Shown here: piece after piece, positions 5,335 to 50,813 of the stretch | How the letters are laid out: the number at the start of each line of letters is the position of its first letter | Numbering within the stretch: the stretch's first letter is position 1 | From: a bacterium | GTDB taxonomy: Bacteria; Patescibacteriota; Minisyncoccia; Phycocordibacterales; UBA5272 | Length of the DNA stretch: 64,000 nt | Direction of reading: 5' to 3' | Assembly: GCA_023267535.1 (NCBI GenBank) | Contig: JAHFNC010000002.1 | Coordinates: 119,426-183,425 of the forward strand | Program-made: the position numbers and the translations under genes | The notes under the pieces: generated by a model | What the model saw: only the letters and a program-made list of their open reading frames with translations | What the model was told of the DNA's origin: nothing | The model's database searches: none

Positions 5335-5667
5335 ATGAAAAGTTCCGTGAGAGCTAGAGCTGTTGTTGTTGAAGCCCCTGTGAAAATTCGCGTCGAAACA
5401 GATGATTCTGGGGAGATTTTCCGTTTTTGTACTAAAGAGGACGGGAGAATTGTTTTCGAAATCATCAGGATAAAAATGACGGTTGATGGTCTGGGGGTTT
5501 ACCAAAAGGGAAGAAATACTGCTTTGCTAGAAGCATGTCGGCTTGCCGTTGATGTGGTTCGTGCGCGTGGTAAGTCAATCTATCTTATTTTCAAAGACAG
5601 AGAGAGAAGGTATCTCGTCGAAGCCGAGTCGTCTCCCTTTGAAATCGAACACTTTTTGTTGAGTTGA
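5335..5667 (+). CDS. Small hypothetical protein on a GC-rich patch
   Basis: 110 aa ORF, noticeably GC-richer than its neighbours, followed by a hairpin terminator at about 5676-5705. Confidence 0.35.
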   Translation: MKSSVRARAVVVEAPVKIRVETDDSGEIFRFCTKEDGRIVFEIIRIKMTVDGLGVYQKGRNTALLEACRLAVDVVRARGKSIYLIFKDRERRYLVEAESSPFEIEHFLLS

Positions 5668-17937: not shown

Positions 17938-18234
17938 TTAATATTTTATCCTGAGGAGGGCAACCACAATGATTATGATTGCTACAAGTTGAAAAAGTTC
18001 ATTTTTCCCCATTCGGAAATTGACTCCGAAGTTTGCCACTCCACTTCCTATGGCAGTAAGAAAAGCACGAATGCCTTCTCCTCCCAAGAAAAGTCCGAAA
18101 ATGACAACAACAAGTAATATGGCCGCTAATTCTCCAGCCGTTTTTGGTTTCATAACCTTTACCTCCATTTTTTGCAGCAGGTTTTTTGCTTCAGGTTTTG
18201 CTTCGGGTTTTGCAGCCGTTTTTTCGTCGCTCAC
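17938..18234 (-). CDS. Small 2-TM membrane protein with a KPEAKPEAK N-terminus
   Basis: ORF with two hydrophobic helices; GC-richer than the genome background. Confidence 0.4.
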   Translation of the reverse strand: MSDEKTAAKPEAKPEAKNLLQKMEVKVMKPKTAGELAAILLVVVIFGLFLGGEGIRAFLTAIGSGVANFGVNFRMGKNELFQLVAIIIIVVALLRIKY

Positions 18235-18236
18235 AA

Positions 18237-18512
18237 TTAGTCACTCCTTTTATCTGTCGGAAACGGCGAAGGGACAACAATTGTGGTCAATTGATTCTTG
18301 ATGTCAGGCTCTTTTGCCTTAGCTTCAATCTCCGCAATATTCTGTTTGATTTTCATCTGGGCGGTGTCTTCTTTTTTCAATTTGACAGCGTCAGACTCAA
18401 TCAGATTTGAATAAGCGTAAAGGATAAGACTAACTGAGCTCATTATTCCAAAAATAGCCCAGACCACGTTTGCAAAAATTTTGTTGCCATCTATCTTTTT
18501 TTCTTCTGCCAT
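18237..18512 (-). CDS. Small single-TM membrane protein
   Basis: ORF 4 bp downstream of the next gene; one TM helix. Confidence 0.4.
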   Translation of the reverse strand: MAEEKKIDGNKIFANVVWAIFGIMSSVSLILYAYSNLIESDAVKLKKEDTAQMKIKQNIAEIEAKAKEPDIKNQLTTIVVPSPFPTDKRSD

Positions 18513-18523
18513 AATCCTTTCTC

Positions 18524-19423
18524 CTATCTATTAAAGACAGTGGCATTGGTAATGAAGAACTTAACTGGCTCTCCGGGGCAGACACCGACTTTTAGCACTG
18601 TCGGGAAACTCATGCTCCCCATAACCGCAATGCAGTCAGCACCTTTACAAAGAAATTCTTTTGGATGTTTCATCAAATAGTATTTCCCGTAAATGTCGTG
18701 CCTTCTATAAAAGGTCATGCTACCAGAGTCGGCTCTTCTTCCTGTGTGGTTGATAAGTCCGACGCAATTTTTTCCTGACCTGTCCGCTGTTCTGATAGCG
18801 CTTTCAAATTCGCTATAGCTTCCGTAAGTGGTTTCGGAAACATCGTAGCAATCAGAGTTCCTTTCTTTTTCAAACTGACTGATTGGAACGACCGGCGGAA
18901 AGTTACAAAATTGATCTTCGTCAGCAACAATCATCTCCTGAGATGCCTGCTGTCTAGAATTCGAATTCAATCCAGATGATGGATTTCCTTCCTGACGCTT
19001 GGAAAAATTTTCCTCGACATCAAATCCGAGATGCGACAGTTTTTGCGAAGAGTCCACTCTCGGTTGTGCTTCAACTCTAACTACGGGTTGGGGAGCGACA
19101 ACAACAAGTGGGGCAGGTTGCGGAACAACTACGGGAGCTTGAGCAACCGGAGTCGGAACGGAAACAGGAACCTGAACAATTTTTTCGACTACTGTTTTTT
19201 CGATTACTTGCTTGTCTTGAAAGAAAGCAATTTTGAACAGAAGTAAGGTGACGATGATGACGAAGGCAAACATACTGAGGATTATCGCCCATCTCCACGG
19301 ACTAGCCCTTTTGGGCATTCTAAGTCTTTCTCCGTGAATGTGAACTCGTTCGTCCTCAACTATGCTTGATTCTCCGTTTATGATTAAAGAGCCTTTCCTT
19401 GGGTCCCTTGGGACAATGTTCAT
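18524..19423 (-). CDS. Membrane-anchored protein with a Pro/Val-rich linker and a Cys-rich C-terminal ectodomain
   Basis: TM helix WAIILSMFAFVIIVTLLLF, linker PVSVPTPVAQAPVVVPQPAPLVVVAPQPVV, six Cys in the C-terminal 150 aa; elevated GC. Confidence 0.45.
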   Translation of the reverse strand: MNIVPRDPRKGSLIINGESSIVEDERVHIHGERLRMPKRASPWRWAIILSMFAFVIIVTLLLFKIAFFQDKQVIEKTVVEKIVQVPVSVPTPVAQAPVVVPQPAPLVVVAPQPVVRVEAQPRVDSSQKLSHLGFDVEENFSKRQEGNPSSGLNSNSRQQASQEMIVADEDQFCNFPPVVPISQFEKERNSDCYDVSETTYGSYSEFESAIRTADRSGKNCVGLINHTGRRADSGSMTFYRRHDIYGKYYLMKHPKEFLCKGADCIAVMGSMSFPTVLKVGVCPGEPVKFFITNATVFNR

Positions 19424-19957: not shown

Positions 19958-20791
19958 ATGTCTTCTCAAGCTATCACTTTAAGAGAGGAGCTAAACACTC
20001 CTTTGATGCAAGCGATATTTGTTTTGTTCTCAGCATCGGTTTTATTTTTACTGACTTGGTTCACTTTCATAAATCACTGGTGGCTGGGATTATTCCCGAG
20101 CATAGCCTCCATATGTTTATCCTTTCGGCGCGTCAAAACATATCATCAAGCCCCACTTGAATTTTTCGGAAAATTAACTGGCAACAGTTTTCCAAATGGT
20201 TACTATTTGGTTGCTGGTATTCCAATCGTCGGAGGATTCTTTCAGTTCTTTGGAATATTTCCTTTTTGGACTTTAGGTGAACAAGTTTCAATCAAGTCTA
20301 GATCATTTGCGATTGATTCTTGCATTGGGAGAACCAAAGACGGAGTCTTAGTTATTGCTAGCGCTAAGGGTTCACTTGAAATAACCGAAGTCTCGCGGTT
20401 CAACCTCTTCTCTGACTCGATAGAAAATGTCGTCACCGGAAAAGTTTTAGGGAGAATGCTTAAGACATTAAGAGATAACACCAGAGGTGAACTTTTTGGT
20501 CACAGCTTCAGATATCCAGCTACTGGTGAGCTTATGGATATGTCTGGAAATAAAACTGGATCAAAAGCTGGGTTTGTCATCACTTCTGTCAGAGAATTCA
20601 CCGAGTCTATTCAGTCTCTTTACGATACCGTCGCCTCATCAGGCGGAAGGCGAGAAATGCTCGAGCAGTTTTCGAAAGAGATTGATAAGCTAAAGAGAGA
20701 TCATCCAAATTCTTCGGACCAGCAAATTCTTTCTCTTTACCTTGCTTCAATCGGCAAAGACTCATCTCTGTACTCTATTAAGTTTGAATAA
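19958..20791 (+). CDS. Hypothetical protein with N-terminal TM helices and a soluble C-terminal domain
   Basis: 277 aa ORF with an RBS-like aggaggggatt before the ATG. Confidence 0.45.
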   Translation: MSSQAITLREELNTPLMQAIFVLFSASVLFLLTWFTFINHWWLGLFPSIASICLSFRRVKTYHQAPLEFFGKLTGNSFPNGYYLVAGIPIVGGFFQFFGIFPFWTLGEQVSIKSRSFAIDSCIGRTKDGVLVIASAKGSLEITEVSRFNLFSDSIENVVTGKVLGRMLKTLRDNTRGELFGHSFRYPATGELMDMSGNKTGSKAGFVITSVREFTESIQSLYDTVASSGGRREMLEQFSKEIDKLKRDHPNSSDQQILSLYLASIGKDSSLYSIKFE

Positions 20792-21562: not shown

Positions 21563-22090
21563 ATGAATAGACATCTTATTAAACTTCTAAAAGATAAAAA
21601 TATTCTTAAATCTGGGAATTTTATTTTAAGAAGTGGAAAACAGTCAGATTATTATTGTGATATTAAAGAAGCACTTGGATATCCAGAAGTTTTAAATATG
21701 TTGGTGACTGAATTAATAAAATTAGTGCCAACTAACGCTACGTGTATTGCGGGTTGTGGATACGGAGGAATAACTTTAGCTTCATTAGTTGCTTACAAAA
21801 AGAAAATACCGTTAGTACTGGTGAGGGATAAAATTAAAAACCACGGTACTAAAAAAATAATTGACGGATACACTCCAAACAAAAAAGATGTTGTTTGTAT
21901 CATTGATGACGTGTTTACAACTGGAAGCAGCATTAAAGATACTAAAGAAAAACTGGCGTATTTAAAATCAAAATTCACTAAGCCTGTAGTTGTTTTAAAC
22001 AGATCAAGAAAATCAGTAGTTATAAGTATTTTGACTGACAAAAATTTATCTGGGAAAAACACCTCACTGAGAACACAAATTAAATATTAA
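21563..22090 (+). CDS. pyrE: Type I phosphoribosyltransferase, orotate phosphoribosyltransferase-like
   Basis: PRPP-binding motif VVCIIDDVFTTGSS; about 175 aa; the start was moved to MNRHLIK. Confidence 0.6.
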   Translation: MNRHLIKLLKDKNILKSGNFILRSGKQSDYYCDIKEALGYPEVLNMLVTELIKLVPTNATCIAGCGYGGITLASLVAYKKKIPLVLVRDKIKNHGTKKIIDGYTPNKKDVVCIIDDVFTTGSSIKDTKEKLAYLKSKFTKPVVVLNRSRKSVVISILTDKNLSGKNTSLRTQIKY

Positions 22091-22760
22091 ATTCTTTTGG
22101 TATTTCTGTTTCTATTAAATATTTTTTATCATTCAAGATAAATTCTATCTTTTGAGCATGGAGCATTAATCTCTGATTATCAATTATTGTTCCGTAAATT
22201 TTATCTCCAATTATAGGGTGTTTAATATATTTCATATGAGCTCTTAATTGATGAGTTCTTCCAGTTATCGGATTTAGTTCTACTAGAGTATTTCCATTTT
22301 TATTTCCTAAAACTTTTACATTGGTTATTGCTTCTCTTAATTCACCTCTTAAATTTGTCGGATTTGCAACTTGTCTATAATTTTTCTTTTCTCTTCCGAG
22401 TGGTGCGTTTATTACAAATTCATTATCATTTATAATTCCTTCAACTAGAGCTATGTAAGTCTTTTTTATTTGTCTTTCTTTAAAAAAACTTTTAAGACTA
22501 TCAAAAGTTTTTTGATTTTTTGCAACTAAAATTATACCGCTAGTATCCCTGTCTAATTTATGAACTAATCCTCCAAGATTTATTATTCTTCCATCTTGTA
22601 ATTTCTTTTCATTACTAATATCAAAAGTTTGTGGATATTTTTCTTTTAGATAATCGAGAAGTGTTTCTTCGCTAGAATAATCAAAAGGATGAACAACTAA
22701 ACCGGCAGGTTTGTTGAAAGCTACGACGTTGTCATCTTCAAAAGAAATGGGTAAATTCAT
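22080..22760 (-). CDS. RluA-family pseudouridine synthase
   Basis: Catalytic motif HKLDRDTSGIILVAKN. Confidence 0.8.
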   Translation of the reverse strand: MNLPISFEDDNVVAFNKPAGLVVHPFDYSSEETLLDYLKEKYPQTFDISNEKKLQDGRIINLGGLVHKLDRDTSGIILVAKNQKTFDSLKSFFKERQIKKTYIALVEGIINDNEFVINAPLGREKKNYRQVANPTNLRGELREAITNVKVLGNKNGNTLVELNPITGRTHQLRAHMKYIKHPIIGDKIYGTIIDNQRLMLHAQKIEFILNDKKYLIETEIPKEFNI

Positions 22761-22807
22761 ACTCGCACTTTATCATATTTTGATGTATAATCTCTAGACA
22801 TAAATAA

Positions 22808-22870
22808 GCCCAGGTGGCGAAATTGGCAAGAAGACAACTGTGCACTTGCCGTAGCAAGTAAGTTGTCTTC
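22808..22870 (+). pseudogene. Decayed partial copy of tRNA-Leu-TAG fused to a terminator-like hairpin
   Basis: gcccaggtggcgaaattgg (22808-22826) is identical to the first 19 nt of the tRNA at 22920; followed by cacttgccgtagcaagt (anticodon-arm-like) inside the hairpin gaagacaact...agttgtcttc plus a T-run. Confidence 0.5.
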
Positions 22871-22919
22871 TTTTTAAAATCAGTCAACTGTGTTAGTTTA
22901 AAATAAAAAATAAATACAA

Positions 22920-23001
22920 GCCCAGGTGGCGAAATTGGTAGACGCACTTGCCTTAGGAGCAAGCGCCGTAAGGCATGAAGGTTCAAGTCCTTTCCTGGGC
23001 A
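22920..23001 (+). tRNA. tRNA-Leu (anticodon TAG), type II
   Basis: gcccagg...cttgccuUAGgagcaag...long variable arm...ggttcaagtcc...cctgggca. Confidence 0.85.
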
Positions 23002-23233
23002 CATCAATAGAAAAATACAGACTTTCCAGTCTGTGTTTTTCTATTGACTGTGTCTCTGTAGAAGAAAGCCAACTGCTTGGCTTTCGTAAGGACTTGAATA
23101 CGGGGTCGCGAAACTACTTCGAGCGGAGCGAGGAGTTTCGTGACCAAGCCATTTCGAAAAGATTCCTTTCCTAAAATAAAAAGATATGTTTCGTGACTAA
23201 GTCTTTAGTATATATCTTTAATAAGAAAAGAAA

Positions 23234-23262
23234 AAAGCGGAACCGCATGCGGTCCCGCTTTG
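23234..23262 (-). terminator. Intrinsic terminator of the GC-rich island gene
   Basis: Minus strand reads aaagcgggaccgcatgcggttccgc followed by a T-run. Confidence 0.6.
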
Positions 23263-23298
23263 TATTTGTGTGTCGCATTGCACGACACGAAAGAACTG

Positions 23299-24954
23299 TT
23301 AGGCCGAAGCCTGTTGTGTGATTGAAGGAAGATCACCAATCTCACGGAGCTTAGCGCGAAGATATTCGCGTAGCTCTTTTCCGGGTAGACCAGTCTCTTC
23401 CATCTTCAGATGGCCGAGCTTGATGAACGGCCGGTAATTGCTAAGCGCGTGACCTTCTGGTGCCGAGACCACTTTGGCAAACCAAATGGAATCATGCGAC
23501 CAACACTTGAACACCACGCCGTCGTTACACTTCCAGTGGCCGTAACTTGCGGTCAGGAAGCCCTTGGCGAGTGGCTTCTCCTTGAGATAGGCGATTTTGT
23601 CAATCCTTTCTCCGTCACTTGCTACGAGCGTAAGGCGAGGAGACTTGCCATATTGCGGTGCAGCAATGTTGTGATGCACTGGCGTTAAGGCAGGAGTTGA
23701 TGCTTTCTTGAAGGACTTCACCACTCCGTTCGCTATGAGCTTGGATTGGATATGTCCGACCAGCGCAACAATCTTGCCGTAGTCTTTGCTACGTTGCAAG
23801 GAAGTTATGTCATCGGCTACCCATTTGGATAAAATGGAAAAACCAGATTCGACTCCGTGTTTCTTGAGATCGTGGTCGACTTCAATTTTCACGACTTCGA
23901 TTTGCTGATTGCCGAGAGAACCGAACAACTTCACAATTACGCCACCAAGGTCGTAAAAACCAATCTGGCTGTGAAGCATGTCGCTAAGCGGGCGATATTT
24001 GTATCCGGTTTCCACCGGTTCATATTTCCTTGTCGGCTTCTCTTCCGACTTAGTCGGCTCTTTTTTGGCAGATAAGCCTTCATCGTCAGCTACCTTGCGG
24101 AGAAACGTCCACAAGGTTTGCTGAGCTTTCTTGCTCACGCCCTCGAGTTTGGATTCGAAGCCTTGATTGCGGAGCTGTCCAATGGTGAGATAGACGCCTG
24201 ATACTTCCGCGTCCATCAGTCCGCTCTCCATCGGGGCGCTACGCACCTTAACGGCTGTAGTAACTCCTGTGCCGACTTTTCTTTCGCAAACTTCGAAAGT
24301 GACACCACGAACTTCGACGAGTCCCAGTCGACTGCCTTCCCAAATGATTCGGGGGGCAGTTGAAGGTTCACGTTCAATCGCTTCTTCGACGGCCGGAATT
24401 TCTTCGAGCATCGTCGTGGTGGCTGTCGTGATTTCGATGGGTTGCCCCATCATTTGTTCACCGTAAATCACCGGCGGCGCGGTCACCAATGCGTTCCGCA
24501 AAAACTTCCAGAAGGCTTCGATTGCGTCTTTCATGTCTTCATCCTTCATTTTGGAAGCGAAGTAGTTCCTTCCGATATGGAAAGAGGGGATTCTGACCCC
24601 CGCTCTCACTCCGGCCAAAGCCAGCGGATGAAACTCAGGAATCCCGTCGGCGACAATGAAGAGAGAATCCTCGGTAGCCTCCTTGAAAAGAGGAAACATA
24701 CCTTTGGAAATCTCCACCCCGTCGACGACATACAGCTCCTTGTCGTAAAGGTTGTTGAAGAGTTGGCCGATGTCATGGCAAAGGTATTCGCCTTTGCGAT
24801 TTTCGGCTCGTTCGCCTTTGGGCGTGTAATCCGGCTTGGGGCCGGCGACGCGCACCTTTTTTTCCTTTTTGACTGGCTTGGGTTTGTCGGTCCCCTTGGT
24901 AGTCTTTGGTTGACCACCACCGTTCTTGGCGCTATCCTTGTATGTTTTTCCCAC
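23299..24954 (-). CDS. Hypothetical 551 aa protein encoded on a GC-rich island (about 55% GC); basic K/P-rich N-terminal tail, then an unrecognised domain
   Basis: Long ORF with a GTG start after ttaggagaaaacc; codon usage and GC are clearly foreign to the flanks; N-terminus MGKTYKDSAKNGGGQPKTTKGTDKPKPVKKEKKVRVAGPKP. Confidence 0.5.
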   Translation of the reverse strand: MGKTYKDSAKNGGGQPKTTKGTDKPKPVKKEKKVRVAGPKPDYTPKGERAENRKGEYLCHDIGQLFNNLYDKELYVVDGVEISKGMFPLFKEATEDSLFIVADGIPEFHPLALAGVRAGVRIPSFHIGRNYFASKMKDEDMKDAIEAFWKFLRNALVTAPPVIYGEQMMGQPIEITTATTTMLEEIPAVEEAIEREPSTAPRIIWEGSRLGLVEVRGVTFEVCERKVGTGVTTAVKVRSAPMESGLMDAEVSGVYLTIGQLRNQGFESKLEGVSKKAQQTLWTFLRKVADDEGLSAKKEPTKSEEKPTRKYEPVETGYKYRPLSDMLHSQIGFYDLGGVIVKLFGSLGNQQIEVVKIEVDHDLKKHGVESGFSILSKWVADDITSLQRSKDYGKIVALVGHIQSKLIANGVVKSFKKASTPALTPVHHNIAAPQYGKSPRLTLVASDGERIDKIAYLKEKPLAKGFLTASYGHWKCNDGVVFKCWSHDSIWFAKVVSAPEGHALSNYRPFIKLGHLKMEETGLPGKELREYLRAKLREIGDLPSITQQASA

Positions 24955-25128
24955 GGTTTTCTCCTAAATTAATGGGTTTATTTCAAAGAACTCACAGTCT
25001 TTGCAAATAGGAAGAGATTTTTTAATTGTTCCCCAGCCTTTATGAAAGATAAATAATATTATACACGAAAACAGCATTTTGTCAAGCAATAAACCATAAT
25101 AAAATAAGGCTTTTTGAGCCCCATTTAT

Positions 25129-25503
25129 CTATTTTTCTCCCTCTTTATCTTTATTTTGTTCCCCAGCCTTACGAAAGATTTCATCCATATATTGTCTCTT
25201 CTTTTCTCCATAATCTAGCTCAACTTCAATGTGTGGTATAACTTTTGTTTCCAGTCTCTTTTTTATAACGTCACGAAGTTCTGAACGCATTCTTTTTGCA
25301 AATGATAAAGCCATCTCTTCTTTATTTTCTGGTAAGACACTTATGAAAAAGGTTGCTCTTCTTAAGTCAGGAGATACTTCGGCATTAGTCACAGTGATAA
25401 GTGAAGCACCAGAAGATTCGCGCTGGAAAAAAGTTTGAGCTACTGATTTTAGCTCAAGAGATACTTGTATCTGTCTTTTGGTTAATGGTTTATTTGCGTC
25501 CAT
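25129..25503 (-). CDS. rbfA: Ribosome-binding factor A
   Basis: About 120 aa and immediately downstream of infB (the nusA-infB-rbfA arrangement); the sequence is consistent with the RbfA KH-like fold. Confidence 0.75.
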   Translation of the reverse strand: MDANKPLTKRQIQVSLELKSVAQTFFQRESSGASLITVTNAEVSPDLRRATFFISVLPENKEEMALSFAKRMRSELRDVIKKRLETKVIPHIEVELDYGEKKRQYMDEIFRKAGEQNKDKEGEK

Positions 25504-25647: not shown

Positions 25648-27195
25648 TTAAATCTTTAATCTTTCCACCACAAAAGCCTCAAGCATATCTCCTGGAATCA
25701 TTTCGAATTTACTTTCAATAGAAATACCACATTCATTTCCTTCTAAAACTTCTTGAGTTTTTATTTTTTGTGACTGAAGTTCAATTATTTTTCCACGTCC
25801 TAAGTCAGTCCCACGACGAATTATTTTTATGTTTGCTCCATTTTGTATCTTTCCAGACTCAACACGGCCTCCGACAACATGAATTTCTTTTTGAATACTA
25901 AAAGTTTTTAATATTTTAAGAACACCAATAGTAAGCTCTTTTTCTTCAAAAGGTAGACGAGAGTCAACTAAAGTATCAAACCATTCTGTTAATTTGTAAA
26001 TTATATCAAAAATTTGTGGTTCAATTTTAAATCTATCAGCCTGATCTCTAGCCTTGCTCTCCATTTTGATAGCGAATCCTAAGATGACAGCTTTTTCATC
26101 AGATGAGGCGAGCATTATATCTCCCTCAGAAATATTTCCAACGCCTTCGCTAATTATTTTTATTTTAATATCATCGGTTTCCGTTTTCTTTATTTCTCTT
26201 TTTATAGCATCTAATGAACCCAAAGAGTCTGTTTTTATTACAACAGGAATTACAACTTTTGCATTTCTATAAATCTTTGGATCAACAACTTCTTTAACTT
26301 GTTCATTTTTTGTTTCTTGTTGAAGACGTTCTATTTCCTTTTTGTCAGAAGATGATATGAATATTGTTCCAGCAGGTGGTATAACATCAAAGCCAGTTAC
26401 CTTTATAGCTTGTCCACGATGCGCTCCCTTGATTGGTCTTCCAGCAAAATCTTCAATAATACGAATAGGGGACATTGATACTCCAGCCAAAATTGCACCA
26501 GAGCTAGCCAGTGTTCCATCTTTTATAACAAGCGTTGCCGAAACTCCTCTTTTACTGTCAACAAAACTTTCAAGTACATAACCTGTGGCATCAGCTTTTT
26601 CATTTGATTTAATATCGCTCATTTCTGCCAAGATAAGAAGAGTTTCAATTAAGTTATCAATTCCAGTTCCGACTTTGGCAGAAATTTCTACGCAAGGAAT
26701 GTCTCCGCCGTAACCTTCAATATAAATCCCATTTTCTACGAGAGAGTTTTTAGTTTTTTGTATGTCAGCATTTGGTTTATCAATTTTATTGATAGCCACA
26801 ATAAATGGAATTTTTCTTTCGCTTATAGTTTTAAAGCTTTCAATGGTTTGCTCCTTCACTGCATCTTCGGCAGAAACAATTAAAATGGCGATGTCGGCAA
26901 TTTCTGCCCCTCTTTCACGCATTGATTGAAAAGCCTCATGGCCTGGAGTATCTAGAAAAGTTATTTTTTTAATTTCGCCAGTTGGTGTTTTATGAGCCAC
27001 TTCATAAGCGCTTATACATTGAGTGATGCCACCAGCTTCTCCGTCAACTACATTTGACTTACGAATAAAATCAAGAAGAGAAGACTTTCCGTGATCAACA
27101 TGACCTAAAACAGCCACGACCGGTTGGACTTCTTCTGTAGAAACTATTTTATTTTCTACTTCTTTTGACATAAAATAATTACACCATGATACCAC
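25648..27195 (-). CDS. infB: Translation initiation factor IF-2 (short form lacking the long N-terminal region)
   Basis: G-domain AVLGHVDHGKSSLLD, DTPGHEAF, NKID; a C-terminal beta-barrel domain follows. Confidence 0.9.
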   Translation of the reverse strand: MVSWCNYFMSKEVENKIVSTEEVQPVVAVLGHVDHGKSSLLDFIRKSNVVDGEAGGITQCISAYEVAHKTPTGEIKKITFLDTPGHEAFQSMRERGAEIADIAILIVSAEDAVKEQTIESFKTISERKIPFIVAINKIDKPNADIQKTKNSLVENGIYIEGYGGDIPCVEISAKVGTGIDNLIETLLILAEMSDIKSNEKADATGYVLESFVDSKRGVSATLVIKDGTLASSGAILAGVSMSPIRIIEDFAGRPIKGAHRGQAIKVTGFDVIPPAGTIFISSSDKKEIERLQQETKNEQVKEVVDPKIYRNAKVVIPVVIKTDSLGSLDAIKREIKKTETDDIKIKIISEGVGNISEGDIMLASSDEKAVILGFAIKMESKARDQADRFKIEPQIFDIIYKLTEWFDTLVDSRLPFEEKELTIGVLKILKTFSIQKEIHVVGGRVESGKIQNGANIKIIRRGTDLGRGKIIELQSQKIKTQEVLEGNECGISIESKFEMIPGDMLEAFVVERLKI

Positions 27196-28113: not shown

Positions 28114-28141
28114 TTGACAAAAACCAAGTATCTGCTACAAT
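28114..28141 (+). promoter_or_regulatory. Near-consensus sigma-70 promoter (TTGACA, 16 nt spacer, TACAAT)
   Basis: ttgacaaaaaccaagtatctgctacaat read directly from the sequence. Confidence 0.6.
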
Positions 28142-28147
28142 GTAGTT

Positions 28148-28695
28148 CGTAACACTTTCGTTACTGTTCTTTGAGGAGAAAAAGAAGATGAAGAAGCGCC
28201 AACTCGCGACTTTGGATAACAGCCATTCGATCATCGCCATCACCGCGGCCATCGGCACCAGCTGAACCGGCGCCGGCCAGTAGCATGTTCTTCGTCATCA
28301 TCGTCAGGTCCATCGCAGATGTCCTGCGTAGCGCAAGCTTCGCAATGCCCGCAAGCGTAATCGCCGTTTGGCACGAGCAATCGTCGCCGGTCGGCTTCGC
28401 ATCCGGGCCCGAGGAATCTGTGGCGGATGAAGTCATCGCCTCATGGCGTAGGCACACCGAAAAGGCCGGTGGTTAGCCCGCCCATCGAGCTCTCAGAGCT
28501 CTTCGGCGATTTCAGAATCAGCGCCCAACGATAAGGAGGTCAAAACCAGAAACCCAAAAGTAAATCCCAAAAGTTACAGGGACCGCTGCTTGCGGGCTGG
28601 TACACAAATACAATCTTCGCCTCAACAACCAAGTCGGTACATCCGACACCCACTAACGCCCCAAGAACTTCGCTGTTCTGGGGCTTTATTTTTTA
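28148..28695 (+). ncRNA. Candidate structured RNA or leader unit of about 550 nt, GC-rich (roughly 55% GC in a roughly 33% GC genome), running from the promoter to an intrinsic terminator; contains a 25-codon SD-preceded ORF (28188-28265, MKKRQLATLDNSHSIIAITAAIGTS)
   Basis: Promoter at 28114-28141; terminator gccccaagaac-ttcgct-gttctggggc plus a T-run at 28658-28695; all six frames are open across this region, so the ORF-track entries 28161-28457 and 28285-28476 are not trusted. Confidence 0.35.
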
Positions 28696-29938: not shown

Positions 29939-29978
29939 AACGCGCAAGCATTGGCTTGCGCGTTAAGTTTTTGTTTTT
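29939..29978 (+). terminator. Intrinsic terminator
   Basis: cgcgcaagc-attg-gcttgcgcg followed by a T-run. Confidence 0.7.
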
Positions 29979-30366
29979 ATTCTTCGTAGAGGAATCTTTG
30001 CCCCTTCACGACTCCGGGGTAAAAGAAGGGGATGCCGATTTTGTTTACGGCCTCCGTTACTTCAATAACCACGCCACCTTTGTCTTCTTCATACGAGGCA
30101 TGAAATATGACCGAGAAAAATCCAGCGCCATATTTGAAAGAAAGAACATCTCTCTCGACACTTTTGGCACCGAGAAAGGTAATATCATTTTCATTCGGTG
30201 CTATTCCTCGCCGAGCAAGTTTCTGCTTCATGACAAGAAGTATAGCTTTTGGCGCCACTTCCCTTATTGTTCTTATTCGTTCATTGTGCATTTTCTGCAG
30301 AAGCAGTTTTTGACGCAATTCTTCAAGAGGCGAGAACGGACAAGCGAGAAAGAGTGAAGCACTCAT
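29977..30366 (-). CDS. Hypothetical protein (GC-richer patch)
   Basis: 129 aa ORF; no recognisable domain. Confidence 0.3.
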   Translation of the reverse strand: MSASLFLACPFSPLEELRQKLLLQKMHNERIRTIREVAPKAILLVMKQKLARRGIAPNENDITFLGAKSVERDVLSFKYGAGFFSVIFHASYEEDKGGVVIEVTEAVNKIGIPFFYPGVVKGQRFLYEE

Positions 30367-49123: not shown

Positions 49124-49702
49124 GTGGCTGGTTACGATGGTTCTGAGGGTGAATCACCTTGTAGTAGAAACAATTCTGAAGGGTGTGAGAAATGTCGTAG
49201 AGGATGTTTCCCGTACTCTGCTTTAATAGAAACACCCAGTGGTAAGATCCCTATTGGAGATTTAAGAGTAGGGCAAATGGTTCTATCTTATAGCAATACC
49301 GGTATTCTAGTGCCAAGACGTATCACGCGCAAATTATCGTATGGCCCAGCCTCAATTGTTAGAGTTGAGTTTACGCCTAACAAGACACACCTAAACTGTA
49401 CCGAGAGTCACAGTTTCCTGACCGGTAGAGGTTGGCTAGCTGTTAAAAAACTTCACTCAGGTGATAGTATTTTTCAGGCTAAGACCTCCCGCATCAGCCC
49501 AATACAGATTCGCAGAATCACATCAACTGGAAAAATGGAACCGGTGTTCAACCTTTATACGGAAGGTGAACACAATTTCATAGCCGATGATTGCATTGCT
49601 CATAACTTTACATTCCTTAGAGTGTTTAGGATGGCTTTGCACAGAATTTTCTTTGATAATTCTTCCAAGATTATGTTCGGCCAATTGACCGGACAAAACT
49701 AA
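49124..49702 (+). CDS. Stand-alone Hint (intein/bacterial-intein-like) domain protein with a Cys-rich N-terminal peptide and a 31 aa hydrophobic C-terminal tail; GTG start
   Basis: Hint blocks CFPYSALIETPSGKIPIGDLRVGQMV (N-terminal Cys), TESHSF (TxxH), EGEHNFIADDCIAHN (terminal HN); GC-richer patch. Confidence 0.6.
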   Translation: MAGYDGSEGESPCSRNNSEGCEKCRRGCFPYSALIETPSGKIPIGDLRVGQMVLSYSNTGILVPRRITRKLSYGPASIVRVEFTPNKTHLNCTESHSFLTGRGWLAVKKLHSGDSIFQAKTSRISPIQIRRITSTGKMEPVFNLYTEGEHNFIADDCIAHNFTFLRVFRMALHRIFFDNSSKIMFGQLTGQN

Positions 49703-50456: not shown

Positions 50457-50486
50457 GCGCAAGCTTTTGGCTTGCGCTCGTTTTTA
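50457..50486. terminator. Bidirectional intrinsic terminator
   Basis: agcgcaagc-ttttg-gcttgcgct followed by a T-run. Confidence 0.65.
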
Positions 50487-50813
50487 TCTCCATATTTGTT
50501 CAATCCAGCAATTGGGGTAAATATGAGGAGTCCCGAATTGGTCATACTGGAGATTGTAGCTATTGCCACACCTGAGTATCTGAATTGGTTGTGGCCTCAT
50601 CTGAGGTGTTTGATACATTGGCATTGGGGCCATATATCCGCCCATATACCCACCCTGGAAACCAAAATACTGGCTACGGGGGGTGTTACCTAAGGATAAG
50701 GCGAAACCGTTACCGGCAATGGAAATGTTCCCGTAAACTCGAGAATTGGCGTTTGCGGGGATTATGGTTACCACCAAAATACAAAGAGCAATTATTGCCA
50801 ACAATCTTTTCAT
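50484..50813 (-). CDS. Small secreted Gly/Tyr/Met/Pro/Gln-rich protein with 3 Cys
   Basis: Signal peptide MKRLLAIIALCILVVTIIPANA; GC-richer patch. Confidence 0.4.
   Translation of the reverse strand: MKRLLAIIALCILVVTIIPANANSRVYGNISIAGNGFALSLGNTPRSQYFGFQGGYMGGYMAPMPMYQTPQMRPQPIQILRCGNSYNLQYDQFGTPHIYPNCWIEQIWR

What the first reader, a model, noticed from the sequence alone, without database searches (positions are those of the whole stretch)
23005..25128. GC-rich single-gene island next to tRNA-Leu(TAG), with a decayed tRNA-Leu copy on the far side and a duplicated rbfA 3' end
The 1.66 kb ORF at 23299-24954 (minus strand) is about 55% GC against about 33% for its neighbours. It has its own terminator at 23234-23262 and a basic K/P-rich N-terminal tail, then about 500 aa with no recognisable motif. 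Its left boundary is tRNA-Leu. A decayed partial copy of the tRNA (19 nt identical 5' end plus an anticodon-arm-like hairpin, 22808-22870) lies 50 bp upstream of the tRNA, on the side away from the island. At the right boundary a 24-27 bp segment, ttgttccccagcctt(t)a(t/c)gaaagat, is duplicated. One copy is the real 3' end of rbfA (25151-25177); the other lies about 100 bp downstream (25027-25053) and would encode an alternative rbfA C-terminus. Foreign composition, a tRNA boundary, an adjacent decayed tRNA copy and a duplicated boundary together suggest a horizontally acquired cargo gene, possibly a single-gene system of unknown function.
Basis: seen in the sequence. Interest (0 to 1): 0.7.

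Follow-up and report, generated by a model that had tools for sequence, protein, structure and literature searches.

The report
GC-rich orphan repeat-protein gene after rbfA
The GC-rich gene is not a freshly imported island: it belongs to an undescribed, fast-evolving protein family that sits in the same slot after rbfA in many related candidate-phyla-radiation (CPR) bacteria, always behind a near-perfect promoter and always far more GC-rich than its host genome, for reasons still unknown.

Summary
ORF 23299-24954(-) has GC 0.51 (not 0.55) and GC3 0.57, against about 0.2 in its neighbours. It has its own terminator, and both small duplications are non-chance.

The gene is a self-contained transcription unit with a 12/12 sigma-70 promoter, an AGGAG ribosome-binding site and a double 3' hairpin. 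It encodes a basic disordered tail plus four homologous ~90-aa beta-beta-beta-beta-alpha modules (AlphaFold2 pLDDT >90). Nothing matches in Pfam, NCBIfam, PHROGs, PADLOC or PDB.

Relatives number 47 cluster representatives among 1.84 billion proteins. HMM-supported members sit directly after rbfA, on the same strand, in 18 of 48 related Paceibacteria-type species genomes. All are GC-rich (GC3 0.50-0.81), and nearly all carry the same consensus promoter. Other relatives show an empty site, rbfA-tRNA-Leu-rluA.

Synonymous sites are close to saturation between orthologous loci, yet third-position composition is identical, and the GC excess stops at the start codon. This points to a sustained, coding-region-specific pressure, not unameliorated foreign DNA. 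Allele divergence is decoupled from host divergence, so the slot is a plastic locus.

The likeliest function is an abundant nucleic-acid-binding protein of PUR/PC4-like topology. The fold match is not significant, so this remains inference.

The parts
23299..24954 (-). Coding sequence of the 551-aa family protein (GTG start, TAA stop). GC 0.51, GC3 0.57.
24784..24954 (-). Codons 1-57: disordered Lys/Pro-rich basic tail containing the conserved motif GPKPDYTPK (residues 38-46).
   Evidence: motif conserved across the family; pLDDT <65
24475..24783 (-). Module R1 (residues ~58-160): beta-beta-beta-beta-alpha, pLDDT >90.
24073..24369 (-). Module R2 (residues ~196-294). This is the most widely conserved module of the family.
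23725..24003 (-). Module R3 (residues ~318-410).
23332..23559 (-). Module R4 (residues ~466-541). It is absent from the L004 orthologue. The C-terminus ends ...QASA.
25058..25085 (-). Sigma-70 consensus promoter, TTGACA-16 nt-TATAAT (12/12).
   Evidence: The same promoter type occurs upstream of 24 of 27 family genes, against 12 of 394 control genes.
24955..25051 (-). Predicted ~97-nt 5' leader. It is AT-rich (GC about 0.29) with no significant structure. The Shine-Dalgarno AGGAG lies at 24961-24965.
25026..25051 (+). Copy of the rbfA 3' end (15 nt exact, about 24 nt in all). It forms the first bases of the leader.
25156..25180 (+). The original of that repeat: the last codons of rbfA (…IFRKAGEQ…).
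23234..23288 (-). 3'UTR double hairpin. The stem-loop at 23270-23288 is followed by the intrinsic terminator at 23234-23261 and a TTTTTTCTTTTCT tail. The arrangement is conserved in L001 and L004.
25102..25126 (-). Terminator-like hairpin of rbfA, separating rbfA from the ORF's promoter.
25129..25503 (-). rbfA, the conserved upstream anchor of the slot.
22920..23002 (+). tRNA-Leu(UAG), convergent with the ORF. It is a conserved resident of the rbfA-rluA interval, in either orientation among relatives.
22806..22880 (+). tRNA-Leu 5'-half-like element (21 nt identical to the tRNA's 5' end) running into a 12-bp hairpin plus U-run. Not part of the gene unit. It recurs in L014 and L033.
22080..22760 (-). 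RluA-family pseudouridine synthase gene, the conserved downstream anchor of the slot.

Best explanation
Shown:
- ORF 23299-24954(-) is a real, independently transcribed gene. It has a perfect sigma-70 promoter, an unstructured ~97-nt leader, an AGGAG ribosome-binding site, and a double 3' hairpin with terminator.
- It encodes a member of an undescribed protein family that was found only in CPR-type contigs wherever context was examined. All related genome records were Paceibacterota, Nomurabacteria or Parcubacteria MAGs.
- The architecture is a disordered basic N-tail with a GPKPDYTPK motif, followed by 1-4 homologous ~90-aa beta-beta-beta-beta-alpha modules (four here) on disordered linkers. 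A second short motif, APQ(F/Y)GK, lies in a linker, and the C-terminus often ends in small residue plus Ala.
- The gene occupies a long-standing plastic slot between rbfA and tRNA-Leu(UAG)/rluA. Across related species the slot is empty, or holds one or two GC-rich genes of this modular family.
- Allele divergence is decoupled from host divergence.
- The GC excess is confined to the coding region. It is the same in orthologues whose synonymous sites are close to saturation.

Inferred:
- The GC-richness is maintained by a sustained, gene-specific pressure on coding-sequence composition. The logit offset from host GC3 is about 1.5. This is a population-scaled strength only if the mutation-selection-drift equilibrium model holds.
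- It is not a leftover of recent horizontal transfer, and it is not ordinary translational selection.
- Alleles are replaced or sorted within the clade, either by recombination through the conserved flanks or by differential loss of old tandem paralogues.
- The product is probably a strongly expressed cytoplasmic protein. I propose that it binds single-stranded nucleic acid through PUR/PC4-like modules and its basic tail.
For: Gene and signals:
- ORF, start, promoter, terminators.
- 3' hairpins fold with z = -5.5 (window) and -6.6 (L001). The leader is unstructured.
- TTGACA plus TATAAT/TATACT at >=11/12, 50-115 nt upstream of the start, in 24 of 27 family genes against 12 of 394 control genes. 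AGGAG-type ribosome-binding sites are also present.

Family:
- Only 3 proteins were found by the word-index search.
- The exhaustive HMMER search found 47 representatives among 1.84 billion proteins.
- No hit in Pfam, PHROGs, PADLOC or NCBIfam, and none by PDB sequence, whether single sequence or profile.

Structure:
- AlphaFold2 with 46 sequences gives mean pLDDT 81. There are four modules above 90, each with the same beta3-(h)-beta-(h)-alpha order, and disordered linkers.
- The modules are mutually homologous by hhalign: 95-98% probability (E 2e-8 to 3e-12) for R1-R2, R1-R3, R2-R3 and R3-R4, and 72-81% (E about 1e-5) for the R1-R4 and R2-R4 pairs.
- The top Foldseek PDB hits are PUR repeats I-II, PC4/Sub1 and MRP1/2. 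The topology matches the PC4-like beta-beta-beta-beta-alpha definition given in PMC7549692.

Synteny:
- infB-rbfA-[gene] in L001, L004, L010 and L013.
- 18 of 48 species loci have an HMM-supported member right after rbfA on the same strand, and about 7 more have another GC-rich ORF there.
- Empty sites exist in L050 and L045.

Composition:
- GC3 is 0.50-0.81 against host medians of 0.21-0.41. The mean logit offset is 1.49.
- Four-fold sites are near saturation (observed about equal to expected identity). The ORF's four-fold composition is A .17, C .37, G .21, T .24 in all three orthologues, against host A .33, C .12, G .09, T .45.
- Mean GC is 0.36 for the 5'UTR and 0.53 for the CDS, and the excess starts within the first 30 codons.
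- S16, ClpB, SodA and peroxiredoxin genes all have GC3 about 0.25.

Decoupling from the host:
- L004-L013: IF2 C-terminal half 91% identical, family protein 33%.
- Window-L001: IF2 C-terminal half 73%, family protein 50%.
Against: - AlphaFold2 does not confidently pair the modules as PUR repeats pair (pTM 0.36).
- High expression is inferred from sequence signals only. No transcript or protein data were examined.
- The cause of the GC excess is unidentified. GC1 and GC2 are also raised, which pure codon selection does not predict.
- Host GC3 and gene GC3 are only weakly correlated (r = 0.25, p = 0.2). That independent argument for long residence therefore fails.
- Window-L001 four-fold identity is somewhat above expectation (0.39 against 0.27), so a not-so-ancient exchange between these two co-occurring organisms is possible.
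- The module alignments used for hhalign were cut from one MAFFT alignment, which may mix repeat types and inflate the scores. With 3 sequences only, the signal is weak (P = 0.0016-0.03).
Confidence: 0.5

Rival explanations
1. Recent horizontally acquired single-gene island, integrated next to tRNA-Leu, whose foreign GC content has not yet ameliorated.
For: - The compositional break is sharp.
- The gene uses codons that are rare in the host.
- Empty sites exist in some relatives.
- Small duplications lie at both ends.
- Allele divergence is decoupled from host divergence.
Against: - The same slot, strand and GC excess are seen in many species-level relatives.
- Synonymous sites are near saturation, yet composition is identical.
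- No integrase or transposase lies between rbfA and rluA.
- The tRNA copy is the 5' half, lies outside the island, and is shared with L014 and L033.
- The promoter and leader are host-like and AT-rich.
- No GC-rich donor was found: the family was found only in CPR-type contigs wherever context was examined, and there were no IMG/VR or JGI hits.
Confidence: 0.05
2. A recombination hot spot carrying a diversifying 'conflict' gene, for example anti-phage or anti-defence, or an effector delivered to the host cell. The alleles would be swapped frequently between co-occurring lineages, and GC would be driven up by GC-biased gene conversion.
For: - Presence/absence variation, 0-2 copies, 1-4 modules and module shuffling with a second GC-rich family.
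- Divergence is decoupled from host divergence.
- The window organism and the L001 organism occur in the same samples.
- The locus shows inversions of the tRNA unit and extra inserted genes.
Against: - The GC excess stops at the start codon. The 5'UTR, whose sequence is not conserved, stays host-like. A regional DNA-level bias should not respect that boundary.
- No PADLOC or other defence-family match.
- No signal peptide or transmembrane segment.
- The magnitude (GC3 up to 0.8 against 0.3) is far larger than the small GC3 shifts attributed to biased gene conversion in bacteria (from my own knowledge, not checked here).
Confidence: 0.2
3. An ordinary, very highly expressed structural protein whose GC-ending codons reflect translational selection for optimal codons.
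For: - Consensus promoter, strong ribosome-binding site and stabilising 3' hairpins.
- C-ending codons are preferred in two-fold boxes.
Against: - Genes expected to be highly expressed (S16, ClpB, SodA, peroxiredoxin) have GC3 about 0.25, the same as the genome.
- G-ending codons and codons rare in the host (CTC, TCC, CCG, ACG, CGG) are enriched as well.
- GC1 and GC2 are also shifted.
Confidence: 0.1
4. The GC-rich stretch owes its composition to an overlapping non-coding function, either a structured RNA or an antisense gene, rather than to the 551-aa protein.
For: - Long antisense ORFs exist, for example 24442-24972(+), 176 aa.
- A second GC-rich unit in the window (28114-28695) has no long ORF.
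Against: - The sense frame is conserved at protein level across 47 divergent relatives and folds into four confident modules.
- The periodicity GC1/GC2/GC3 = 0.57/0.39/0.57 fits the sense frame.
- No Rfam hit.
- Antisense ORFs are expected by chance in GC-rich DNA.
Confidence: 0.03

Closest known systems
PUR-repeat / PC4-like (Whirly-like) single-stranded nucleic-acid-binding domains: Pur-alpha, Borrelia Bpur, PC4/Sub1, MRP1/2 (review PMC7549692)
   Same: - Each module has the beta-beta-beta-beta-alpha order that defines a PC4-like half-domain.
- Modules occur in tandem (1-4 copies), as PUR repeats do (3 in Pur-alpha, 1 in Bpur).
- A basic tail suits nucleic-acid binding.
- PUR, PC4 and MRP structures top the Foldseek PDB list.
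   Different: - No sequence or profile similarity.
- The modules are longer (~90 aa, with two extra short helices) and are joined by 30-60-aa disordered linkers.
- Intramolecular pairing is not predicted (pTM 0.36).
- Nucleic-acid binding is untested.
tRNA-associated genomic islands (integrase-mediated)
   Same: - A compositionally deviant gene next to a tRNA gene.
- Patchy presence among relatives, with an 'empty site' state.
   Different: - No integrase.
- No 3'-tRNA direct repeats bracketing the insert.
- The slot is occupied across a whole clade, with near-saturated synonymous divergence.
- The deviation is towards higher GC and is maintained, not decaying.
Hypervariable chromosomal slots flanked by conserved core genes, where divergent alleles are exchanged by homologous recombination in the flanks. 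This comparison comes from my own knowledge and was not checked against the literature here.
   Same: - Conserved anchors (rbfA; tRNA-Leu/rluA).
- Variable content and copy number.
- Allele divergence unrelated to host divergence.
   Different: - The cargo is a cytoplasmic repeat protein rather than a surface-structure gene.
- The cargo's composition deviates upward in GC, uniformly across hosts.

Membership tests
tRNA-flanked, integrase-mediated genomic island | Integrase or recombinase gene inside the island or at its edge | tested here: not met
   The rbfA-rluA interval (22761-25128) holds only the 551-aa ORF and tRNA-Leu. The ORF has no recombinase domain.
tRNA-flanked, integrase-mediated genomic island | Direct repeat of the tRNA 3' part (attL/attR) bracketing the inserted DNA | tested here: not met
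   The only tRNA-derived repeat is the 5' 21 nt. It lies 112 nt upstream of the tRNA, on the side away from the ORF, and it is also present in L014 and L033.
tRNA-flanked, integrase-mediated genomic island | Recent acquisition: absent from close relatives, with composition still decaying towards the host's | tested here: not met
   The gene is present at the same site in L001, L004, L010, L013 and others. Four-fold sites are near saturation, yet composition is identical. Empty sites occur only in more distant relatives.
tRNA-flanked, integrase-mediated genomic island | Base composition and codon usage deviating from the host genome | tested here: met
   GC 0.51 against 0.35, and GC3 0.57 against about 0.2. 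Codons rare in the host are enriched.
PUR-repeat / PC4-like nucleic-acid-binding domain | [quoted passage not shown] | tested here: met
   DSSP on the AlphaFold2 model gives, for example, E74-77, E80-88, E96-104, E121-123, H139-158. The same order appears in all four modules.
PUR-repeat / PC4-like nucleic-acid-binding domain | Significant structural similarity to solved members | tested here: inconclusive
PUR-repeat / PC4-like nucleic-acid-binding domain | Sequence-profile match to Pfam PUR/PC4/Whirly families or to solved members | tested here: not met
   No Pfam hit for any of 46 members at E <= 1. The module profile against PDB sequences gives a best E of 0.075, to unrelated proteins.
PUR-repeat / PC4-like nucleic-acid-binding domain | Two half-domains pair (within or between chains) to form the binding unit; binds ssDNA/RNA | not testable with these tools
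pTM of 0.36 suggests no confident inter-module packing. Binding needs experiment.
Known anti-phage defence systems (PADLOC-DB) | Match to a defence-protein model | tested here: not met
   No families for any of 8 diverse members at E <= 1.
Phage or prophage gene | Match to phage protein families, viral structures or viral contigs | tested here: not met
   PHROGs gave 0 hits. BFVD Foldseek gave a best E of 0.02, with no meaningful match. The IMG/VR pattern scan found no relative (limited sensitivity).

The most novel reading that the evidence does not exclude
A 2026 preprint (10.64898/2026.06.21.733656) proposes that these bacteria are parasites that import RNA from GC-rich hosts and keep a codon usage complementary to the host's.

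On that background, this family would be a parasite gene deliberately written in 'host-like' GC-rich codons. It is transcribed constitutively from a consensus promoter, and it often ends in an ssrA-like tail. Its protein level would then be set by translation, for example by the supply of host-derived tRNA or RNA, so that it acts as a feeding-state sensor.

Alternatively, it could be a nucleic-acid-binding effector that captures or handles host RNA and evolves in an arms race with the host.
Probability: 0.05. Interest if true: 0.9.

Novelty: new variant of a known kind. Interest (0 to 1): 0.6.

Why it matters
A deviant GC content next to a tRNA is usually read as recent horizontal transfer. 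Here that rule of thumb fails. The deviation is a stable property of a gene family across a whole CPR clade. It is confined to the coding region, and it persists although synonymous sites have nearly turned over completely.

That points to an unrecognised force on the coding-sequence composition of particular genes in very AT-rich, reduced genomes.

It also flags an undescribed, probably abundant repeat protein with an invariant consensus promoter in bacteria whose biology is almost unknown: episymbiosis or parasitism, and possibly feeding on host RNA.

The family gives a concrete, clonable target. The questions are whether it binds RNA or ssDNA, and why its mRNA must be GC-rich. Other GC-rich orphan genes in the same genomes suggest that the phenomenon extends beyond this one family.

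Tried and rejected
- The word-index homology search with the 40-sequence family alignment returned only the same 3 proteins, so that search was wasted.
I used the IF2 C-terminal half instead, to fetch the syntenic loci.
- Scans of IMG/VR and JGI metagenome contigs with the 3-sequence alignment found no relatives.
The run with 3 sequences gave a poor model, pLDDT 48.
- I looked for a correlation between host GC3 and gene GC3, as evidence of long residence. It is weak (r = 0.25, p = 0.2) and I dropped it as an argument.
- The 5' leader was considered as a riboswitch-like element. Leaders are similar in length but not in sequence, and the window's leader is unstructured, z = +0.8. Rfam found nothing.
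- The partial tRNA copy was considered as an att scar. I rejected this.
- Two literature searches for a prior description of this gene or phenomenon found none. A third, on codon usage, found only the RNA-feeding preprint used above.
- Cluster look-up gave no source names for the proteins.
Full report
**1. What is in the sequence**

The ORF at 23299-24954 on the minus strand (551 aa, GTG start) is real. Its GC is 0.511, not 0.55, and the three codon positions are 0.57/0.39/0.57. The flanking genes are far lower: rbfA 0.357 (GC3 0.25), infB 0.348 (0.20), the RluA-family gene 0.275 (0.14) and pyrE 0.302 (0.21). Among about 60 ORFs of at least 100 aa in the 64-kb window it has the highest GC3 of the real genes. 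The median is about 0.25, and only the probably spurious 133-aa ORF at 29956-30357 comes close, at 0.567.

- tRNA-Leu(UAG) lies at 22920-23002(+).
- The terminator at 23234-23261(-) is a 12-bp stem with a T-run. A second hairpin at 23270-23288 precedes it, and the pair folds with z = -5.5.
- Both small repeats are real and not chance. The tRNA 5' end is copied exactly over 21 nt (22806-22826 = 22918-22938). The end of rbfA is copied exactly over 15 nt (25026-25040 = 25156-25170), extending to about 24 nt.

**2. The gene is a self-contained transcription unit**

rbfA has its own terminator-like hairpin at 25102-25126. Between it and the ORF start lies a 12/12 sigma-70 promoter, TTGACA-16-TATAAT, at 25085-25058(-). 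It is followed by a ~97-nt AT-rich, unstructured leader and AGGAG 6 nt before the GTG.

The copy of the rbfA 3' end forms the first ~25 nt of this predicted leader. It lies beyond rbfA's stop and terminator, so it cannot give rbfA an alternative C-terminus.

**3. The protein**

No match was found in any curated library:
- Pfam, PHROGs and PDB sequences;
- NCBIfam and PADLOC;
- Pfam for any of 46 relatives.

AlphaFold2 with only 3 sequences was poor (pLDDT 48). With 46 family sequences it gave mean pLDDT 81 and four modules above 90, at residues about 62-158, 199-291, 323-408 and 472-539. Each has the same order: short helix, three strands, short helix, short strand, long helix. The linkers and the basic N-tail are disordered, and pTM is 0.36.

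Profile-profile comparison of the four module alignments shows that they are homologous. Probability is 95-98% (E 2e-8 to 3e-12) for R1-R2, R1-R3, R2-R3 and R3-R4, and 72-81% (E about 1e-5) for the R1-R4 and R2-R4 pairs. With 3 sequences alone the signal is weak but in register.

Two short motifs are conserved inside disordered parts: GPKPDYTPK near the N-terminus and APQ(F/Y)GK in a linker. About 20 of 46 members end in small residue plus Ala (..QASA..KAA..QAA).

Fold searches gave the following:
- Foldseek against the PDB found nothing significant (best E = 0.5). The top of the list is dominated by PUR repeats I-II of PURA/Pur-alpha, PC4/Sub1 and the MRP1/2 guide-RNA-binding proteins.
- The module's beta-beta-beta-beta-alpha order is the topology that defines PC4-like half-domains (PMC7549692).

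I therefore treat 'PUR/PC4-like single-stranded nucleic-acid binder with a basic tail' as the best functional lead, not as a finding.

**4. Relatives and their genomic setting**

The word-index search found only two relatives, at 50% and 35% identity. The exhaustive HMMER search with their alignment found 47 representatives among 1.84 billion proteins. They are 115-624 aa long, with 1-4 modules in varying combinations.

Every relative whose context could be read in an AT-rich genome sits directly after infB-rbfA:
- L001, L004 and the window's own copies;
- L010;
- L061, which is followed by the RluA-like gene.

To sample the clade without bias towards the gene, I fetched the infB region from one genome per species. 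This gave 48 loci, all Paceibacterota/Nomurabacteria/Parcubacteria-type MAGs.
- 18 have an HMM-supported family member right after rbfA on the same strand, sometimes two in tandem.
- About 7 more have another GC-rich ORF there. Some of these belong to a second family that shares a C-terminal domain with family member P0016.
- About 15 have ordinary AT-rich genes there.
- The rest end too early to tell.

The distance from rbfA to the RluA-like gene ranges from 174 nt (L050, only tRNA-Leu between them) and 397 nt (L045) to 5.1 kb. In the window it is 2.4 kb. An empty site exists, but only in more distant relatives, and the occupied state is clade-wide.

**5. The compositional anomaly is a stable family trait**

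Family genes have GC3 of 0.50-0.81 in hosts whose median GC3 is 0.21-0.41. Even in a genome of about 50% GC, and away from rbfA, the family gene is richer than its neighbours: 0.75 against 0.46-0.69 (L059).

Between the window, L001 and L004, identity at four-fold sites of conserved codons is close to that expected from composition alone, in host genes and in the ORF. Synonymous sites have therefore nearly turned over. Even so, the ORF's four-fold composition is the same in all three (A .17-.18, C .35-.38, G .19-.23, T .23-.26), against about A .33, C .12, G .09, T .45 in host genes. Foreign DNA that had merely failed to ameliorate would not behave like this.

The mean logit difference between gene and host GC3 is 1.49 (SD 0.51). 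Under a mutation-selection-drift equilibrium this equals the population-scaled strength of the bias. That step is my inference.

The excess begins at the start codon. 5'UTRs average 0.36 GC, coding regions 0.53 and GC3 0.62, and the first 30 codons are already GC-rich. This argues against a regional DNA-level cause such as biased gene conversion or a local mutation bias.

It is not ordinary translational selection either:
- Ribosomal protein S16, ClpB, SodA and a peroxiredoxin all have GC3 of about 0.25.
- The ORF is enriched in codons that are rare in the host: CTC .36 against .04, TCC .26 against .03, CCG .40 against .14, GTG .40 against .13.
- GC1 and GC2 are raised too. The pressure therefore acts on nucleotide content across the translated region.

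I cannot identify its cause. Candidates are listed as rivals and next steps.

**6. Expression signals are as conserved as the position**

24 of 27 family genes have TTGACA plus TATAAT or TATACT (>=11/12) 50-115 nt upstream of the start. Only 12 of 394 control genes from the same loci do. The promoter context TTGACAAA..(N)..GTGTATA(A/C)T is nearly invariant, although the proteins share under 30% identity.

Leaders are similar in length but not in sequence. Ribosome-binding sites are AGGAG-like. The 3' double hairpin with the tail TTTTTTCTTTTCT recurs in L001 (z = -6.6), and the terminator hairpin with the same tail recurs in L004.

From these signals I infer strong, probably constitutive transcription. 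No expression data were examined.

**7. The slot is plastic and alleles do not track the host**

- Host proteins place L001 and L004 together (IF2 85%), with the window outside (74%). The ORF is 53% identical between the window and L001, and 36% to L004.
- Across species, L004 and L013 share 91% identity in the IF2 C-terminal half but only 33% in the family protein. L011 and L012 share 89% against 39%. The window and L001 share 73% against 50%.
- The window organism and the L001 organism occur in the same sequencing runs.
- The tRNA-Leu unit is inverted in some genomes.
- L001 has three extra genes in the slot: an ECF sigma factor, a DUF5667 protein and a PG-binding protein.

Either alleles are exchanged through the conserved flanks, or old tandem paralogues have been lost differentially. 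Both fit the 0-2 copy states. No integrase or transposase is present.

**8. The two small repeats**

The tRNA 5'-half copy is followed by a 12-bp hairpin and a U-run (z = -3.5). It lies upstream of the tRNA, away from the ORF. Equivalent copies 102-103 nt upstream of tRNA-Leu(UAG) exist in L014 and L033. There the copy pairs with a reverse-complement of the D-arm instead. It is a recurrent leader-like element of the tRNA gene, not an island scar.

The 24-nt rbfA-end copy is specific to this lineage. L001's leader shares only its first 9 nt. It may be a footprint of a past recombination at the junction.

**9. Verdict**

The interpretation as a horizontally acquired island bounded by a tRNA and duplications is not.

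What is there is a member of a new, clade-restricted, modular protein family. It occupies a conserved but plastic slot after rbfA, it is driven by a consensus promoter, and its coding sequence is held at a GC content far above the genome's by an unidentified, coding-region-specific pressure. I found no description of the gene or of the phenomenon.

A 2026 preprint proposes that these bacteria feed on RNA from GC-rich hosts and keep a codon usage complementary to the host's. That makes a 'host-like' GC-rich gene for a putative nucleic-acid-binding protein worth testing, but the link is speculation.

Noticed in passing
window 28114-28695 (+): A second GC-rich unit (GC 0.56-0.61) lies between the DUF4446 gene and the NifS-like gene.
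- It has a TTGACA-17-TACAAT promoter (28114-28142), GAGGAG, and an ATG at 28189 giving only a 25-aa ORF (MKKRQLATLDNSHSIIAITAAIGTS*).
- No long ORF exists in any frame.
- A terminator-like hairpin lies at about 28659-28695.
- No Rfam match.
- In relatives (L028, L030, L039, L047, L048, L050, L057) the same place holds a GC-rich gene (GC3 0.58-0.97) for a small signal-peptide, Ala/Gly-rich protein.
The window copy may be a pseudogene or a non-coding RNA.
   Followed up: partly
window 22806-22880 (+); L014 12462-12480 (-); L033 11279-11297 (+): A copy of the first 19-21 nt of tRNA-Leu(UAG) lies 102-112 nt upstream of the real tRNA in three different genomes. Each copy runs into a stable hairpin. 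In the window the hairpin is followed by a U-run. In L014 and L033 it is formed with a reverse-complement of the D-arm. This is a recurrent tRNA-leader element of unknown role.
   Followed up: partly
L028 8460-9476, L046 4844-5863, L014 9690-10871 (all +): A second GC-rich orphan family (GC3 0.61-0.71) occupies the same slot after rbfA. Its N-terminal region carries ...FRSGKY.G.RDG.NGF.PA... and its C-terminal region carries ...AGLNSGTWVG.... The C-terminal part is shared with family member P0016, which indicates module shuffling between GC-rich genes at this locus.
   Followed up: partly
window 17938-19423 (-), 19958-20791 (+), 50484-50813 (-), 49124-49702 (+), 5335-5667 (+): Several other orphan genes have moderately raised GC3 (0.38-0.47 against about 0.25). 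One of them encodes a small signal-peptide protein (MKRLLAIIALCILVV...). The cluster at 17938-19423 is conserved upstream of dprA in L004, also with raised GC. GC-richness may mark a class of lineage-specific genes in these genomes.
   Followed up: no
family proteins P0001-P0048 (window ORF residues 38-46, 432-437 and the C-terminus): Two short motifs are conserved inside disordered regions: GPKPDYTPK and APQ(F/Y)GK. About 20 of 46 members end in small residue plus Ala (..QASA, ..KAA, ..QAA, ..VAA). This resembles an ssrA-type ClpXP degron (my own knowledge; not tested).
   Followed up: no
window 25648-27195 (-) and all related loci: IF2 in this clade is only about 505-520 aa and lacks the long N-terminal region of typical bacterial IF2. 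It is preceded by a DUF4446 gene rather than by nusA.
   Followed up: no
window 23004-23047 (+) and 23048-23233: A 20-bp near-perfect hairpin directly follows tRNA-Leu. The remaining ~190-nt spacer before the ORF's terminator contains a direct repeat GTTTCGTGAC (23135 and 23188) and a GC-rich inverted repeat (GTCGCGAAACTAC...GGAGTTTCGTGAC). Nothing was identified there.
   Followed up: no
L001 9880-12097: In the closest species-level relative, three genes lie between the family gene and tRNA-Leu: a PG_binding/Pur_ac_phosph_N protein, a DUF5667 protein and an ECF-type sigma-70 factor. This is another sign that the rbfA-rluA interval accepts insertions.
   Followed up: no
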